From a virus (lineage: Duplodnaviria; Heunggongvirae; Uroviricota; Caudoviricetes), in IMG/VR virus record IMGVR_UViG_2534681934_000027: a DNA stretch of 13,819 nucleotides. One strand, 5' to 3'. The position numbers are program-made. Position 1 is the first letter of the stretch; every line of letters begins with the position of its first letter. This document shows, one piece after another, positions 6,001-9,000 of this stretch.

Positions 6001-9000
6001 GGCCGGCTTCCTGGCTAAACATCAAAAAGGCGATGTTGCCAGCGTATCCGGCACGATGCAGGTAAGCCAGTGGACCGGACAGAACGGAGAAACGCGGCAG
6101 GGCTGGCAGGTTATCGCAGACAGCGTAATCAGTGCCCGCGCGGCACGTCCAGGCGGGAACAGACGCAAAACCACAGGCACACAGGGTAATCAGCCACCAG
6201 CGGGAGGCGATGACCCTTACGGTGATGATATTTCGTTCTGAGGGGGTGACGATGGTACATGACCGCATAGCGGAGGAACTGGAGGCGAAAGGCTTTTACC
6301 GGAGGGCGGCGGCGCGATGGGGTGAAGTCATGCAGCTGGTGGAGACAGACAAGGAACGGCATCACATCACGATGCGACGGCTGGAATGTTCAAGGAAGGC
6401 ACAGAGGGCACCGGAGCCGCCGGATAATTTCGGAGACCTGAAAAAGGCAGTCGATCGCACTTATGCCGAAATGGGTATAGATGGTGCTGGTGATGAAATA
6501 TGGCGCAATTACCAGGACAGCTAATCAAACAGCCGGAGAAATCCGGCTTTTTTTGCACCAGTTGAAACGGTATGGCGCATTACCGGGTTTTCGTCACGGT
6601 CAGGCATAGTTACTATCTGAAACAAACAGACACAACAGAGGAAAAAACAATGCCGATGAAATTTGATGAGATATTAAAACAGCGTGATAAATACCATGCT
6701 GACAACATGGAGACGATGAGCATCAATGATTACCGCGCATTCCTGGAGACGGGCGCACTGATTGAAAAGGATCAGCATGGTTTTGTGAGATGTGCTCTAT
6801 CCGGTGAAATGCTGGCGGTAAATCCTGAACAGATAGATGCATTGATAGAATTTCTGAAAGAGATCAGAGACTGAGCCAGCACACAGCACACATAGCCGGA
6901 GCAATCCGGCTTTTTTGCGCCCAAAAAAAGCCCGATAAGGTCAGAGGGTTCTTATCGGGCTTTTGCATATGAGGTTTTTGGATGCACTGGCGTTCGTGAT
7001 CGGGATAATCATTTCATAATTTGCAACATAACTCAATATCATTGCATAAAATGCAATTCTGATTATAATCAGGACTGGATAAACATCCAGTTATGATTTT
7101 TTTAGTCGAAGAGGAATTTCTTACTATGGCTGAAGAGAAAAAAAGCGGTGTTTCGGTGTACATAAGCCCCGAAATCGTGGAGGTGCTCAAGCAGCGCCAC
7201 AAAAAAAACTATGAAGCTGGCGTTGCGGCTGGACTGGATCCGCTGATGACGCCGGAGCCGTCGATAGGTTCACTTGTACGCTCTTATTTACTTGCGGCGC
7301 TTGGGATGCATAAAAATTATGGGGGTGAATAATGGCAGGCAAAGCAACGGCACTTAACACTAACCAGCTTTTCATGTACCTGAATCGCGGGGATATTGCG
7401 GATTTTAAATTCAGCCCTCTGTTTACCACGCTGTTTTTCCCGAACGTGGCGACATTCAGCACGCAAAACATCATGCTGGATACCCTGGACATTGAAGAAG
7501 TCACCATGTCGGCGTTTTGTTCGCCTATGGTGGGTAGCCAGGTTCAGCGCGATAAAGGGTACGAAACCAGCACAATCAAACCTGGCTACATGAAGCCAAA
7601 GCACGAAATCGATCCAACGAAAACCATCATGCGCATGGCTGGAGAAGATCCGGCACAGCTTAACGACCCTACCTATCGCCGTATGCGCCTGATTACTGGC
7701 AACATGCGCCGCCAGATAAACGCCATTAAGGCACGCGTGGAATGGCTGGCGGTGAATGCGGTAACGACCGGAAAAAACATCATTGAGGGCGAAGGCATAG
7801 AACGCTATGAAATCGACTGGAAAATACCGGAAAACTGCATCATAGAGCAGGCCAAGGGTAAAAAATGGTCCGAGCAGGATAAAGACATGCACGACCCAAT
7901 CTATGACATCGAGCTTTATGCTGATCAGGCTGGTTGCCCCGCAAACGTCATGATTATGGGCGCTGAGGTATGGCGCACATTACGCAGCTTTAAAAAATTC
8001 CGTGAGCTGTACGATCTTTCCCGTGGTTCAGAATCCGCCGCCGAACTGGCCTGTAAAAACCTGGGCGAAGTGGTGAGCTTTAAAGGCTATCTTGGTGATC
8101 TGGCCCTTATCGTCTATTCCGGCAAATACACTGACAGCGATGGTACCGAAAAATATTTCCTTGAGCCTGATTTGCTGGTCCTGGGTAACACCAACAATAA
8201 AGGGCTGGTGGCCTATGGTGCGATAATGGATCAGGAAGCGGTAAGAACGGGCGCAACACAAAACATGTTTTACCCGAAAAACTGGATTGAGGACGGCGAT
8301 CCGGCGATTGAGTACGTGCAGACACACAGTGCACCGCAGCCGGTACCGGCAGATATTCGCAAATTTGTTACCGTCAAAATTGGTTAACGGGGGGATTCTA
8401 TGGACACTCCATACATTGAGTTATTTGCAGGCAGTCAGCAGGTATCCACGACGTTGGTACATTTTGCCGCTGATGCTGGCGTTATTCAGGAATTTACCCC
8501 GCTGATGCTGGCAGACAATGGCGAGTTTAAGCCGTGGGATGGTCAGGAATCTGGCAAGGCTGTTTATCTGACCTCGTACCCTGTGGACACGTCAAAGCAG
8601 AAATCAGCACAGTGTTACAAGACGGGGATATTCAATATTGCCGCCGTTAACTGGCCTGAGAGCGTCGACACCGATGCGAAAAAATGCGCCGCCTTTGCGG
8701 GTTCCGGCGTATCCGTTCAGCCGCTGGCCCGATAAGCAGGGGGAACGATGGCAACGAATGAAAGCATCATGACGCTACCGCTGGCGAGTAAATTTAAAGT
8801 CGAAGCGCGGGCAATGGCTGACAGAGGTTTATCAACCTATGAGGCCGTATATCAACTAAACAAACTGGAAGAGCAGGACAAGCCGTGCGCTGATGCGATT
8901 ATGGCGCTTCATGAGCATAAAGACTATCAGCCGCTGTTGCGTGCAATGGCAAACGTGCCTTGTATCGATGTTGGTACGGCTAAAAGCATCCTTAGCATGA

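What the first reader, a model, noticed from the sequence alone, without database searches (positions are those of the whole stretch)
7019..7125. Capsid-operon promoter with an overlapping palindrome and a leader hairpin plus T-run
A near-consensus promoter (TTGCAT-16-TATAAT) has its -35 embedded in the inverted repeat ATTGCAT/ATGCAAT, with another TTGCAA 21 bp upstream, suggesting a regulator binding site. The predicted transcript then starts with the hairpin CTGGAT-AAAC-ATCCAG (7075..7090) followed by seven T (7097..7103), a possible attenuator requiring helper-dependent activation or antitermination.
Basis: seen in the sequence. Interest (0 to 1): 0.5.

Follow-up and report, generated by a model that had tools for sequence, protein, structure and literature searches.

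The report
SOS-box-gated capsid promoter of a PICI
The sequence is the conserved promoter of the capsid operon of an E. coli phage satellite (PICI); the supposed leader hairpin/attenuator is most likely a binding site for the host SOS repressor LexA placed on the transcription start, and the palindrome on the -35 is one of two conserved operator sites for a regulator that is still unknown.

Summary
The window is an EcCICFT073-type Gram-negative PICI of E. coli O157:H7, between roxA and phoQ.

Supported: the promoter. TATAAT/TAAAAT and the TTGC of the -35 are kept across E. coli, Salmonella and Edwardsiella elements. It is not near-consensus, because the -35 matches only 3 of 6.

Supported and extended: the palindrome on the -35 is one of two copies of TTGCA-N5-TGCAA, 30 bp apart (7012-7026 and 7042-7056). 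The binding protein is unknown.

Not supported: the attenuator. CTGGATAAACATCCAG has LexA (SOS) box geometry, CTG-N10-CAG. Its heterology index is 7.61, between uvrA at 6.98 and ruvAB at 9.19, with 0.0013 such sites expected per window. The 20-mer starts exactly 3 nt after the -10 in 45 of 56 unique promoters.

The only substitution in the stem breaks a G-C pair but moves toward the LexA consensus. Lineages without the palindrome keep the T-run. A Lelliottia relative has an unrelated LexA-like box (HI 7.57) upstream of the same operon.

The nearest parallel is LexA control of SaPI operon I. LexA binding itself is inferred, not shown.

The parts
6894..6916 (+). Intrinsic terminator 1, ending the upstream (replication/PerC) transcription unit.
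   Evidence: AGCCGGAGCAATCCGGC followed by T6. Terminator scan; -12.5 kcal/mol.
6926..6968 (.). Intrinsic terminator 2. It is bidirectional in form: an A-run, a 15-bp stem, then a T-run.
   Evidence: -21.3 kcal/mol, z -5.7. Stem invariant in all relatives, including the cfPICI L010.
7012..7026 (.). Distal operator O2, TTTCA-TAATT-TGCAA, centred about -57 from the predicted start.
   Evidence: One mismatch to TTGCA-N5-TGCAA. Nearly invariant in 58 unique E. coli sequences while flanking DNA varies. Present in Salmonella, E. coli lineage 2, Edwardsiella (as TTGCACTTTATGCAA) and the cfPICI.
7042..7056 (.). Proximal operator O1, TTGCA-TAAAA-TGCAA. Its left arm is the -35 hexamer region and its right arm lies in the spacer. 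In this window it extends to a 17-bp perfect palindrome at 7041-7057.
   Evidence: The only exact match to the pattern in the window. Arms conserved and centre variable (TAAAA, CAAAA, AAAAA, TGTTA) across genera.
7042..7047 (+). -35 hexamer TTGCAT (3/6 to consensus).
   Evidence: TTGC invariant; positions 5-6 variable.
7064..7069 (+). -10 hexamer TATAAT (6/6), 16-nt spacer.
   Evidence: Invariant in lineage 1; TAAAAT in lineage 2 and Edwardsiella at the same distance from O1. The predicted start at about 7076 +/- 2 is inferred, not mapped.
7073..7092 (.). LexA (SOS) box candidate GACTGGATAAACATCCAGTT, core CTG-N10-CAG at 7075-7090.
   Evidence: HI 7.61 using the matrix recovered exactly from PMC12527982 Table S1. 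0.0013 such sites expected per window. Arms invariant. The 20-mer starts 3 nt after the -10 in 45 of 56 unique promoters. In 747 kb of PICI DNA, sites with HI<12.5 fall into this position, the int 3' end position, and one other site.
7097..7103 (+). T-run in the 5' UTR. It belongs to the conserved block T5-7-A(A)GTC-(A/G)AAGAGGAA that leads into the Shine-Dalgarno sequence.
   Evidence: Kept (T5-T7) in lineages that lack the palindrome, and displaced from it in Salmonella.
7109..7115 (+). Shine-Dalgarno AAGAGGA for the first gene of the operon.
   Evidence: Invariant; 10 nt upstream of ATG 7126.
7126..7332 (+). First gene of the operon, 68 aa (phrog_3255, function unknown). A ribbon-helix-helix fold is only weakly hinted.
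   Evidence: PHROG hit. AlphaFold model has strand-helix-helix order, pLDDT 73. Sub-threshold hits in 3 of 13 homologues each to BrnA_antitoxin (best E 0.017) and RHH_1 (0.15). No fold match. The in-frame ATG at 7093 is closed by TAA in most relatives.
7332..8387 (+). Lambda gpE-like major capsid protein.
   Evidence: PF03864, E 5.5e-50.
8400..8735 (+). Lambda gpD-like head decoration protein.
   Evidence: PF02924, E 5.1e-18.
8748..9161 (+). 137-aa head-module protein (phrog_1999).
   Evidence: Annotated as head-tail connector in some relatives.

Best explanation
Positions 7012-7125 are the control region of the late (capsid/packaging) operon of an EcCICFT073-type Gram-negative PICI.

1. Two strong terminators (6894-6968) insulate it from the upstream replication/PerC genes.
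2. Transcription starts from a sigma-70 promoter with a weak -35 (TTGCAT), a 16-nt spacer and a perfect -10 (TATAAT). The predicted start is about 7076.
3. Two layers of control sit on this promoter.
   a. Twin 15-bp palindromic operators, TTGCA-N5-TGCAA, lie 30 bp apart. O1 covers the -35 and the spacer, and O2 is centred near -57. They are most likely bound cooperatively by a dimeric regulator that has not been identified. From O1's position, that regulator is most likely a repressor, or a factor that loads at the promoter.
   b. The palindrome CTGGAT-AAAC-ATCCAG acts as DNA, not RNA. It is a LexA operator covering about -3 to +17. The host SOS repressor would keep the capsid operon off in undamaged cells. 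RecA-stimulated LexA cleavage, the same signal that induces lambdoid helper prophages, would release it.
4. The T-run is part of the conserved U-rich 5' UTR in front of the Shine-Dalgarno sequence. It is not a terminator tail.

Shown by analysis: the anatomy, the conservation, the LexA-box score and the chance expectation. Inferred: the transcription start, actual LexA binding, the sign of regulation at O1/O2 and the identity of their binder.
For: Context:
- The window encodes integrase, an AlpA-like HTH protein, a RepA helicase, SSB and PerC, followed by gpE-like capsid, gpD-like decoration and Nu1-like TerS genes.
- This matches the EcCICFT073 organisation described in PMC6092414.

Promoter:
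- The -10 and the TTGC of the -35 are invariant in 58 unique E. coli sequences, while neighbouring positions vary in 10-20 or more of them.
- The same layout occurs in Salmonella, a second E. coli lineage and Edwardsiella, whose capsids are 63-68% identical.
- A capsid-forming PICI shares the region up to about +5 and then diverges completely. The promoter is therefore a portable cassette.

Operators:
- One exact and one 1-mismatch copy of TTGCA-N5-TGCAA lie 30 bp apart.
- Arms are conserved and centres are free. Edwardsiella has two copies 32 bp apart.

LexA box:
- The HI matrix was recovered with rmse 1e-5 from 145 published sequence/HI pairs.
- This site scores HI 7.61, the majority variant 6.81 and the ATACAG variant 5.41. 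For comparison: recA 4.31, uvrB 6.11, uvrA 6.98, lexA 6.40 and 8.32, ruvAB 9.19 (CTGGATATCTATCCAG, same arms), polB 12.09. In that table the Mean Shift low-HI cluster ends at HI 13.6.
- Expected sites with HI<=7.61: 0.0013 per 13.8 kb and 0.44 per 4.6 Mb.
- The 20-mer starts 3 nt after the -10 in 45 of 56 unique promoters.
- The only arm substitution, C to A giving ATACAG, occurs in 4 unique sequences. It breaks a G-C pair and improves the LexA match.
- Salmonella keeps the box (HI 7.98). A Lelliottia PICI has an unrelated box, CACTGTTTTTTCATACAGTT (HI 7.57), 26 nt before the homologous first gene.
- In 77 distinct PICI contigs (747 kb), all sites with HI<12.5 except one lie either at this position (69 contigs) or at the 3' end of int (30 contigs).

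Precedents:
- LexA boxes that overlap the start site are typical of tightly LexA-dependent genes (PMC8072944).
- SaPI operon I, the packaging module, 'is controlled by LexA' (Ubeda 2007, title cited).
Against: - No experiment or public dataset examined here shows LexA binding or SOS induction of this operon.
- The transcription start is predicted, not mapped.
- HI is a sequence score. The arms are CTGG/CCAG rather than the consensus CTGT/ACAG, as in ruvAB and cho.
- One relative (L056, 2 contigs) has a 1-nt insertion in the centre. That would destroy LexA spacing but not a hairpin.
- About a fifth of promoters with the same twin operators lack any LexA box: 10 E-type sequences (9 of lineage 2 plus the L056 insertion variant) and the cfPICI. 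LexA control is therefore not essential to the cassette.
- PMC6092414 reports that alpA induction of EcCICFT073 depends on the helper phage, not on SOS. LexA would be at most one of several locks.
- The O1/O2 binder is unknown. The 68-aa first gene product is absent from the cfPICI that carries the operators. PerC is not annotated in the stretch upstream of the promoter in several PICIs that carry them.
Confidence: 0.7

Rival explanations
1. The palindrome folds in the nascent RNA and, with the T-run, forms a promoter-proximal intrinsic terminator or attenuator. A helper- or PICI-encoded antiterminator overrides it, loading at the element between -35 and -10 as lambda Q or P. aeruginosa AlpA do.
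For: - The terminator scan lists GACTGGATAAACATCCAGTT followed by ATGATTTTTT.
- The hairpin is more stable than shuffles.
- The right arm of O1 lies between -35 and -10, where the AlpA binding element and the Q binding element lie.
- P. aeruginosa AlpA bypasses terminators that begin 26-54 nt after the start (PMC7969949).
- All these PICIs encode an AlpA-family protein.
Against: - The stem is weak: -5.7 to -8.7 kcal/mol with 3 G-C pairs, against -12.5 and -21.3 for the true terminators 120-180 nt upstream.
- The T-run begins 4-6 nt after the stem.
- The predicted start (about 7076) falls inside the 5' arm.
- There is no compensatory substitution. The only stem change breaks a pair.
- Lineage 2 and Edwardsiella keep the T-run and Shine-Dalgarno block with no hairpin, and their leaders fold no better than shuffles (z about 0).
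- In Salmonella the T-run lies 10 nt from the stem.
- O1 bears no resemblance to the ABE motif GGGACGN5GGTA.
- No Rfam family matches.
Confidence: 0.07
2. The palindrome is an operator for a protein other than LexA, for example the same unknown regulator that binds O1/O2, the 68-aa first gene product, or a helper-phage protein. Its resemblance to a LexA box is coincidental.
For: - The arms are invariant and the centre variable, as expected for any dimeric DNA-binding protein.
- The CTGG/CCAG arms depart from the consensus CTGT/ACAG.
- The first gene product has weak ribbon-helix-helix hints.
Against: - A chance LexA-box score of 7.6 is expected 0.0013 times per window.
- Natural variation moves toward the LexA consensus (ATACAG, HI 5.41).
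- A Lelliottia relative has a sequence-unrelated box with an equally good HI (7.57) in front of the homologous operon.
- A second class of LexA-like boxes recurs at the int 3' end in at least three unrelated sequence families.
- The palindrome has no similarity to O1/O2.
Confidence: 0.1
3. The palindrome works mainly as a 5'-terminal RNA stem-loop that protects the capsid mRNA from 5'-end-dependent decay. Any LexA binding would be secondary.
For: - If transcription starts at 7073-7075, the hairpin would sit at the very 5' end of the mRNA.
- 5'-terminal stem-loops are known to stabilise E. coli mRNAs (established knowledge, e.g. the ompA 5' UTR).
- The L056 variant with an enlarged loop would still fold.
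Against: - The same conservation arguments apply as against the attenuator: no covariation, one pair-breaking substitution, and absence in lineage 2.
- The extension pairs 7073/7092 and 7074/7091 are not maintained; T-T occurs in 17 loci.
- The most likely start (7076-7077) would truncate the stem to 4-5 bp.
Confidence: 0.08

Closest known systems
LexA control of SaPI operon I, the packaging/capsid-remodelling module of Staphylococcus aureus pathogenicity islands (Ubeda et al. 2007).
   Same: - A phage satellite places the host SOS repressor on the promoter of its late/packaging operon.
- That operon is thereby tied to the same signal that induces helper prophages.
- A separate, helper-specific switch controls the rest of the island.
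   Different: - Gram-negative host and a Gammaproteobacterial LexA box (CTG-N10-CAG) rather than the Firmicute box.
- Different genes: lambda gpE/gpD/Nu1 homologues.
- Here LexA binding is predicted from sequence only.
- I found no description of it for Gram-negative PICIs in the searchable literature.
E. coli chromosomal SOS boxes with CTGG/CCAG arms: ruvAB (CGCTGGATATCTATCCAGCA, HI 9.19) and cho (CACTGGATAGATAACCAGCA, HI 9.54).
   Same: - Arms identical to ruvAB (CTGGAT...ATCCAG) with an A/T-rich centre.
- The HI is better than that of either box.
   Different: - Located on a mobile element.
- Sits 3 nt after a perfect -10.
- Flanks and centre differ.
Promoter-embedded antiterminator loading sites: lambda Q/QBE at PR' and P. 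aeruginosa AlpA/ABE at PalpB (PMC7969949, PMC9371919).
   Same: - A conserved element, the right arm of O1, lies between -35 and -10.
- The operon belongs to an element whose master regulator is an AlpA-family protein.
   Different: - There is no convincing downstream terminator.
- O1 is a palindrome with a second copy upstream, which is typical of repressors/operators. The ABE is asymmetric (GGGACGN5GGTA).
- There is no sequence similarity.
Late region of EcCICFT073 (c1499 capsid homologue, c1500 decoration protein) in the model Gram-negative PICI (PMC6092414, PMC6739421).
   Same: - Same gene order and a homologous control region.
- The closely related Nissle 1917 island carries the same promoter, operators and box (AGCTGGATGAACATCCAGTT, HI 7.87).
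   Different: - The papers read describe AlpA autoactivation and Rpp-mediated packaging. They do not describe the promoter, operators or any SOS box of this operon.

Membership tests
Gammaproteobacterial LexA (SOS) box | 16-bp core CTG-N10-CAG with an A/T-rich centre. | tested here: met
   CTGGATAAACATCCAG at 7075-7090. 12 of 16 positions match CTGTATATATATACAG.
Gammaproteobacterial LexA (SOS) box | Heterology index within the range of LexA-binding sites. Published boxes run from 2.4 to about 12, and the low-HI (Mean Shift) cluster of PSOSP Table S1 ends at about 13.6. | tested here: met
   HI 7.61 (relatives 5.41-9.61), using the matrix recovered exactly from PMC12527982 Table S1. Chance expectation 0.0013 per window.
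Gammaproteobacterial LexA (SOS) box | Position overlapping the promoter or transcription start of the regulated gene. | tested here: met
   The 20-mer starts 3 nt after the conserved -10 in 45 of 56 unique promoters. The start site itself is predicted, not mapped.
Gammaproteobacterial LexA (SOS) box | LexA binds the site, and expression is derepressed on SOS induction or in lexA(Def). | not testable with these tools
   No ChIP, EMSA or expression data for this island were found. The O157 RNA-seq set examined covers a different island (the cfPICI Sp7) that lacks the box.
Intrinsic terminator / transcription attenuator | A stable G+C-rich stem followed immediately (0-2 nt) by a U-tract. | tested here: not met
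   The stem is -5.7 to -8.7 kcal/mol with 3 G-C pairs. The T-run starts 4 nt after the extended stem and 6 nt after the core stem, and 10 nt after it in Salmonella. The permissive scan lists it only as 5 T in an 8-nt window.
Intrinsic terminator / transcription attenuator | Base pairing maintained in evolution, and stem and U-tract co-inherited. | tested here: not met
   No compensatory change in 58 unique sequences, and the one stem substitution breaks a pair. Lineage 2 and Edwardsiella keep the T-run without any stem.
Intrinsic terminator / transcription attenuator | The whole hairpin lies within the transcript. | tested here: inconclusive
   With the -10 at 7064-7069, the usual start (7074-7078) falls on the 5' arm (7073-7080). 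No mapped 5' end is available.
Sigma-70 promoter | -35 and -10 hexamers with 16-18 nt spacing, maintained among relatives. | tested here: met
   TTGCAT-16-TATAAT, 9 of 12. The -10 and TTGC are invariant in E. coli relatives, and the geometry is kept in Salmonella, Edwardsiella and the cfPICI. The consensus match alone is not above chance.
Q / AlpA-type promoter-loaded antitermination | A factor-binding element between -35 and -10, plus a terminator within about 20-60 nt of the start that the factor bypasses. | tested here: not met
   An element (the right arm of O1) is in the right place. However, it is palindromic and duplicated upstream, is unlike GGGACGN5GGTA, and the terminator requirement fails as above.
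Ribbon-helix-helix autoregulator (for the 68-aa first gene as the O1/O2 binder) | A recognisable RHH fold or family membership, and co-occurrence with the operators. | tested here: inconclusive
   The model has strand-helix-helix order (pLDDT 73), and there are sub-threshold Pfam hits to BrnA_antitoxin and RHH_1. There is no Foldseek or PDB match. The cfPICI with O1/O2 has no homologue.

The most novel reading that the evidence does not exclude
Gram-negative PICIs may be wired to the SOS response at two points. One LexA box sits on the start of the late capsid/packaging promoter. A second sits at the 3' end of int, ahead of the alpA region.

On top of this, a portable 'late promoter cassette' with twin TTGCA-N5-TGCAA operators is shared by classical and capsid-forming PICIs. 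It would be read by a still unidentified master regulator, possibly AlpA acting from between -35 and -10.

If true, this would revise the current picture that induction of these islands is SOS-independent and purely AlpA/helper-driven. It would also be a convergent parallel to SaPI operon I.
Probability: 0.3. Interest if true: 0.7.

Novelty: new member of a known kind. Interest (0 to 1): 0.5.

Why it matters
PICIs are abundant satellites that spread virulence and defence genes. How Gram-negative PICIs time their late (capsid/packaging) genes is not described in the papers I could search.

A LexA operator on the late promoter would give a simple, testable timing rule. The operon would be off in healthy cells and released by the same DNA-damage signal that wakes the helper prophage, as in staphylococcal SaPIs.

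The twin operators define a conserved cis-element. It could be used to fish for the missing regulator and to recognise late promoters across classical and capsid-forming PICIs.

For the original claim, the practical message is that the hairpin should be tested as DNA (LexA footprint, lexA alleles) before it is tested as RNA.

Tried and rejected
- Rfam scan of 6500-7500 at E<=10: only sub-threshold noise, nothing at the hairpin.
- Protein-guided scan of genome contigs with the capsid: no confirmed relative.
- Degenerate DNA pattern for the twin operators in genome contigs: too unspecific.
- 'phages' collection: no match to 6990-7140. 'plasmids' collection: two identical copies, uninformative.
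- Published O157 SOS RNA-seq (PMC5931665): the island next to phoQ in Sakai/PA20 (Sp7) turned out to be a capsid-forming PICI without the LexA box. The data do not test the hypothesis.
- The 68-aa first gene as the O1/O2 binder: only weak RHH hints, no fold or PDB match, and absent from a cfPICI that has the operators. Kept only as a minor possibility.
- PerC as the binder: no perC is annotated in the stretch upstream of the promoter in several PICIs that have identical operators.
- Alternative upstream promoter TTCATA-18-TATCAT from the scan: its -10 is not conserved.
- The in-frame ATG at 7093 as the start codon: closed by TAA in most relatives.
- More distant capsid relatives (<=55% identity, no small gene; L097, L099-L101, L103): neither the operators nor a LexA box, so the architecture is confined to the clade with the small gene, plus the cfPICI cassette.
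Full report
**What the window is**

The window encodes, in order:
- a tyrosine integrase (1-1230);
- an AlpA-type HTH protein (1605-1793);
- a DUF4222 protein, a RepA-family helicase, SSB and a PerC-family protein;
- after a 250-nt gap, a 68-aa protein, a lambda gpE-like capsid protein, a gpD-like decoration protein, a 137-aa head protein and a Nu1-like small terminase;
- an IS3-family element and then phoQ.

An O157:H7 chromosome (PV15-279) matches the 461-nt query around the finding at 100% identity and carries the same gene order between roxA and phoQ. This is the organisation of the EcCICFT073-type Gram-negative PICIs, which carry a capsid homologue (c1499) and a decoration homologue (c1500) and use AlpA as activator (PMC6092414). 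Neither that paper nor the follow-up on Rpp describes the promoter of this late region.

**Checking the observation**

All motifs lie at the coordinates given; the list is in the observation check. Three qualifications matter:
- The -35 TTGCAT matches the consensus at only 3 of 6 positions. The consensus scan therefore does not list this promoter, and promoter-like matches in the window are no more common than in shuffled sequence.
- The hairpin is real but weak: -5.7 kcal/mol for the 6-bp core and -8.7 with two extra pairs. The two terminators 120-180 nt upstream have -12.5 and -21.3 kcal/mol.
- The T-run does not abut the stem.

**Comparative evidence for the promoter**

The region has homologues in 601 of 5426 complete E. 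coli genomes, at 76-100% identity. I aligned 10 annotated loci and then 58 unique sequences from 90 loci. The alignments give a clear footprint.
- Invariant or nearly invariant: the stem of terminator 2, ATTTCATAATTTGCAAC, the TTGC of the -35, TGCAAT in the spacer, TGATTATAATCA, CTGGAT, ATCCAG, the T-run and the Shine-Dalgarno sequence.
- Variable in 10-20 or more of the 58 sequences: the stretches between those blocks.

Relatives whose capsids are only 63-68% identical keep the same layout. These come from Salmonella, a second E. coli lineage and Edwardsiella. Their -10 is TATAAT or TAAAAT, at a fixed 7 nt after the proximal palindrome.

A capsid-forming PICI (HK97 capsid, protease, portal) shares the region from terminator 2 to about +5 at 78% identity and then diverges entirely. 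The promoter is therefore a functional, portable cassette.

**The palindrome on the -35 is one of two operators**

Searching the window for TTGCA-N5-TGCAA gives one exact hit (7042-7056) and one hit with one mismatch, 30 bp upstream (7012-7026, TTTCATAATTTGCAA).

Across lineages the arms are kept while the 5-nt centres differ (TAAAA, CAAAA, AAAAA, TGTTA, CTTTA). Edwardsiella has two good copies 32 bp apart. The 7-bp arms are an O157-clade feature.

Conserved G/C positions in the spacer and near -57 are not explained by RNA polymerase contacts. They argue for a dimeric protein that binds twice. The proximal site spans the -35 and the spacer, which suggests repression, or a factor that loads at the promoter.

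The binder is not identified:
- **PerC.** No perC is annotated in the stretch upstream of the promoter in several PICIs that have identical operators.
- **The 68-aa first gene product.** It has only weak ribbon-helix-helix hints and is absent from the cfPICI that carries the operators.
- **AlpA.** It is annotated in both islands examined in full and is a hallmark of E. coli PICIs, but nothing similar is found at its own promoter.

**The 'leader hairpin' reads as a LexA box**

CTGGATAAACATCCAG has the geometry CTG-N10-CAG. Its arms are those of the ruvAB SOS box.

To score it without relying on memory, I took 145 sequence/HI pairs from Table S1 of PMC12527982. I solved for the position weights, and the fit is exact (rmse 1e-5), giving a symmetric matrix.

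| Site | HI |
|---|---|
| This window (GACTGGATAAACATCCAGTT) | 7.61 |
| Majority variant | 6.81 |
| ATACAG variant | 5.41 |
| recA | 4.31 |
| uvrB | 6.11 |
| lexA (two boxes) | 6.40 / 8.32 |
| uvrA | 6.98 |
| ruvAB | 9.19 |
| cho | 9.54 |
| polB | 12.09 |

In that table the low-HI (Mean Shift) cluster ends at HI 13.6. With the window's base composition, a site this good is expected 0.0013 times per 13.8 kb and 0.44 times per 4.6 Mb.

**Tests that separate DNA operator from RNA hairpin**

1. An exact-pattern scan of IMG/VR for the twin-operator promoter returned 94 contigs and 56 unique promoter-leader sequences. In 45 of them a LexA-like box (HI 5.4-9.6) starts exactly 3 nt after the -10, so it covers the predicted start site.
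2. The centre of the box varies (AAAC, GAAC, GTTC, GTAC, GAAA) and the arms do not. The single arm substitution, in 4 unique sequences, turns ATCCAG into ATACAG. This breaks a G-C pair and moves toward the LexA consensus.
3. The extension pairs are not maintained.
4. Lineage 2 and Edwardsiella lack the palindrome but keep the block T5-7-AGTC-AAAGAGGAA at the same place. Their leaders fold no better than shuffles. The T-run is therefore inherited with the ribosome-binding region, not with the stem.
5. In Salmonella the box is kept (HI 7.98) but the T-run lies 10 nt away.
6. A Lelliottia PICI (capsid 58% identical; the first gene is homologous) has an unrelated box, CACTGTTTTTTCATACAGTT (HI 7.57), 26 nt before that gene.
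7. In 77 distinct PICI contigs (747 kb), every site with HI<12.5 except one lies either at this +3 position (69 contigs) or at the 3' end of the integrase gene (30 contigs, in at least three unrelated sequence families).

One observation favours a hairpin: a 1-nt insertion in the centre in one variant (L056).

**Mechanism proposed**

In uninduced cells LexA occupies about -3 to +17 and blocks the late promoter, and the unknown regulator occupies O1 and O2. DNA damage activates RecA, LexA cleaves itself, and the same signal induces lambdoid helper prophages. The capsid/decoration/TerS-like operon can then be transcribed, subject to whatever the O1/O2 factor does.

Three steps are inferred: the start site, LexA binding and the sign of O1/O2 control.

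[quoted passage not shown] LexA boxes that overlap the start site characterise tightly LexA-dependent genes in Salmonella (PMC8072944).

**Rivals**

AlpA/Q-type antitermination has a genuine precedent. P. aeruginosa AlpA binds an element between -35 and -10 and bypasses terminators that begin 26-54 nt after the start (PMC7969949). Here, however, the terminator fails on stem strength, on adjacency of the U-tract, on covariation and on co-inheritance, and O1 is a duplicated palindrome unlike the ABE.

A 5'-stabilising hairpin, or an operator for another protein, cannot be excluded. Both are less economical given the LexA score, the direction of natural variation and the independent Lelliottia box.

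**Limits**

- No experimental data bear directly on this island.
- The O157 SOS RNA-seq I examined covers the Sakai-type element at the same chromosomal site. That element is a capsid-forming PICI without the box.
- About a fifth of twin-operator promoters have no LexA box, so LexA is an added lock rather than a core part of the cassette.
- EcCICFT073 alpA induction was reported to be helper-dependent and not SOS-dependent.

**Verdict**

The region is best described as a conserved PICI late promoter with twin operators and a LexA box on the start site. It is a new member of a known kind, a LexA-gated satellite packaging operon. I could not find it described for Gram-negative PICIs in the searchable literature.

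Noticed in passing
window 1259-1278 (also L315 4825-4844 and 30 IMG/VR contigs): A second LexA-like box, TACTGGATATGCGAACAGAT (HI 11.58), lies 28 nt after the integrase stop codon. Other PICIs have unrelated LexA-like boxes (HI 5.1-12.2) at the same place: overlapping the int stop, or 28, 68 or 116 nt after it, depending on the integrase family. Together with the late-promoter site these account for all but one of the sites with HI<12.5 in 747 kb of PICI DNA.
   Followed up: partly
window 9868-11081 (minus strand), compared with L001: An IS3-family element (orfA HTH_Tnp_1, orfB rve; about 1.3 kb) is inserted at the 3' end of the Nu1-like small terminase gene. The gene layout of L001, which is identical in the queried promoter region, implies it lacks the element. 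This copy of the island may be packaging-defective.
   Followed up: partly
L010/L315 (E. coli JNEC-KY176) and Sakai Sp7 (ECs1574-ECs1599): Capsid-forming PICIs (HK97 capsid, protease, portal, TerS/TerL) share terminator 2 and the twin-operator promoter with this classical PICI, and homology stops about 5 nt after the -10. In Sakai the element next to phoQ is such a cfPICI. The same chromosomal site therefore holds different late modules in different O157 strains.
   Followed up: partly
window 1285-1330: Three tandem copies of GCAACAATGA, followed by degenerate copies (GGAACAACTACGAACAAG), lie between int and alpA. They look like arm-type or AlpA/Xis-type binding repeats.
   Followed up: no
window 7059-7072: CTGATTATAATCAG is a perfect 14-bp palindrome centred on the -10. 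Relatives have ATGATTATAATCAT or mixed outer bases, so the outer pair does not covary consistently. It is probably incidental to the near-palindromic TATAAT, but a site overlapping the -10 is not excluded.
   Followed up: partly
window 7126-7332 and homologues (A3; L091, L092, L094, L096, L102): The 68-aa first gene (phrog_3255) is conserved from E. coli to Lelliottia, with the motif GV(S/T)VYIS...PS(I/V)G..VR. It gives weak sub-threshold hits to two ribbon-helix-helix families. Its function is unknown.
   Followed up: partly
window 6252-6524 and 6531-6553: A PerC-family gene with its own terminator-like hairpin lies two genes upstream of the promoter. PerC-like genes of PICIs are reported either to have no effect on LEE1 or to repress it (PMC11773190). 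Their targets within the island are unknown.
   Followed up: no
window 6923-7019, minus strand: Weak sub-threshold Rfam hits to the EHEC prophage sRNAs AsxR, AgvB and AgrB (15.8-18.2 bits, against gathering scores of 40-63) fall on the reverse strand of terminator 2. The shared terminator-like stem is the likely cause.
   Followed up: no
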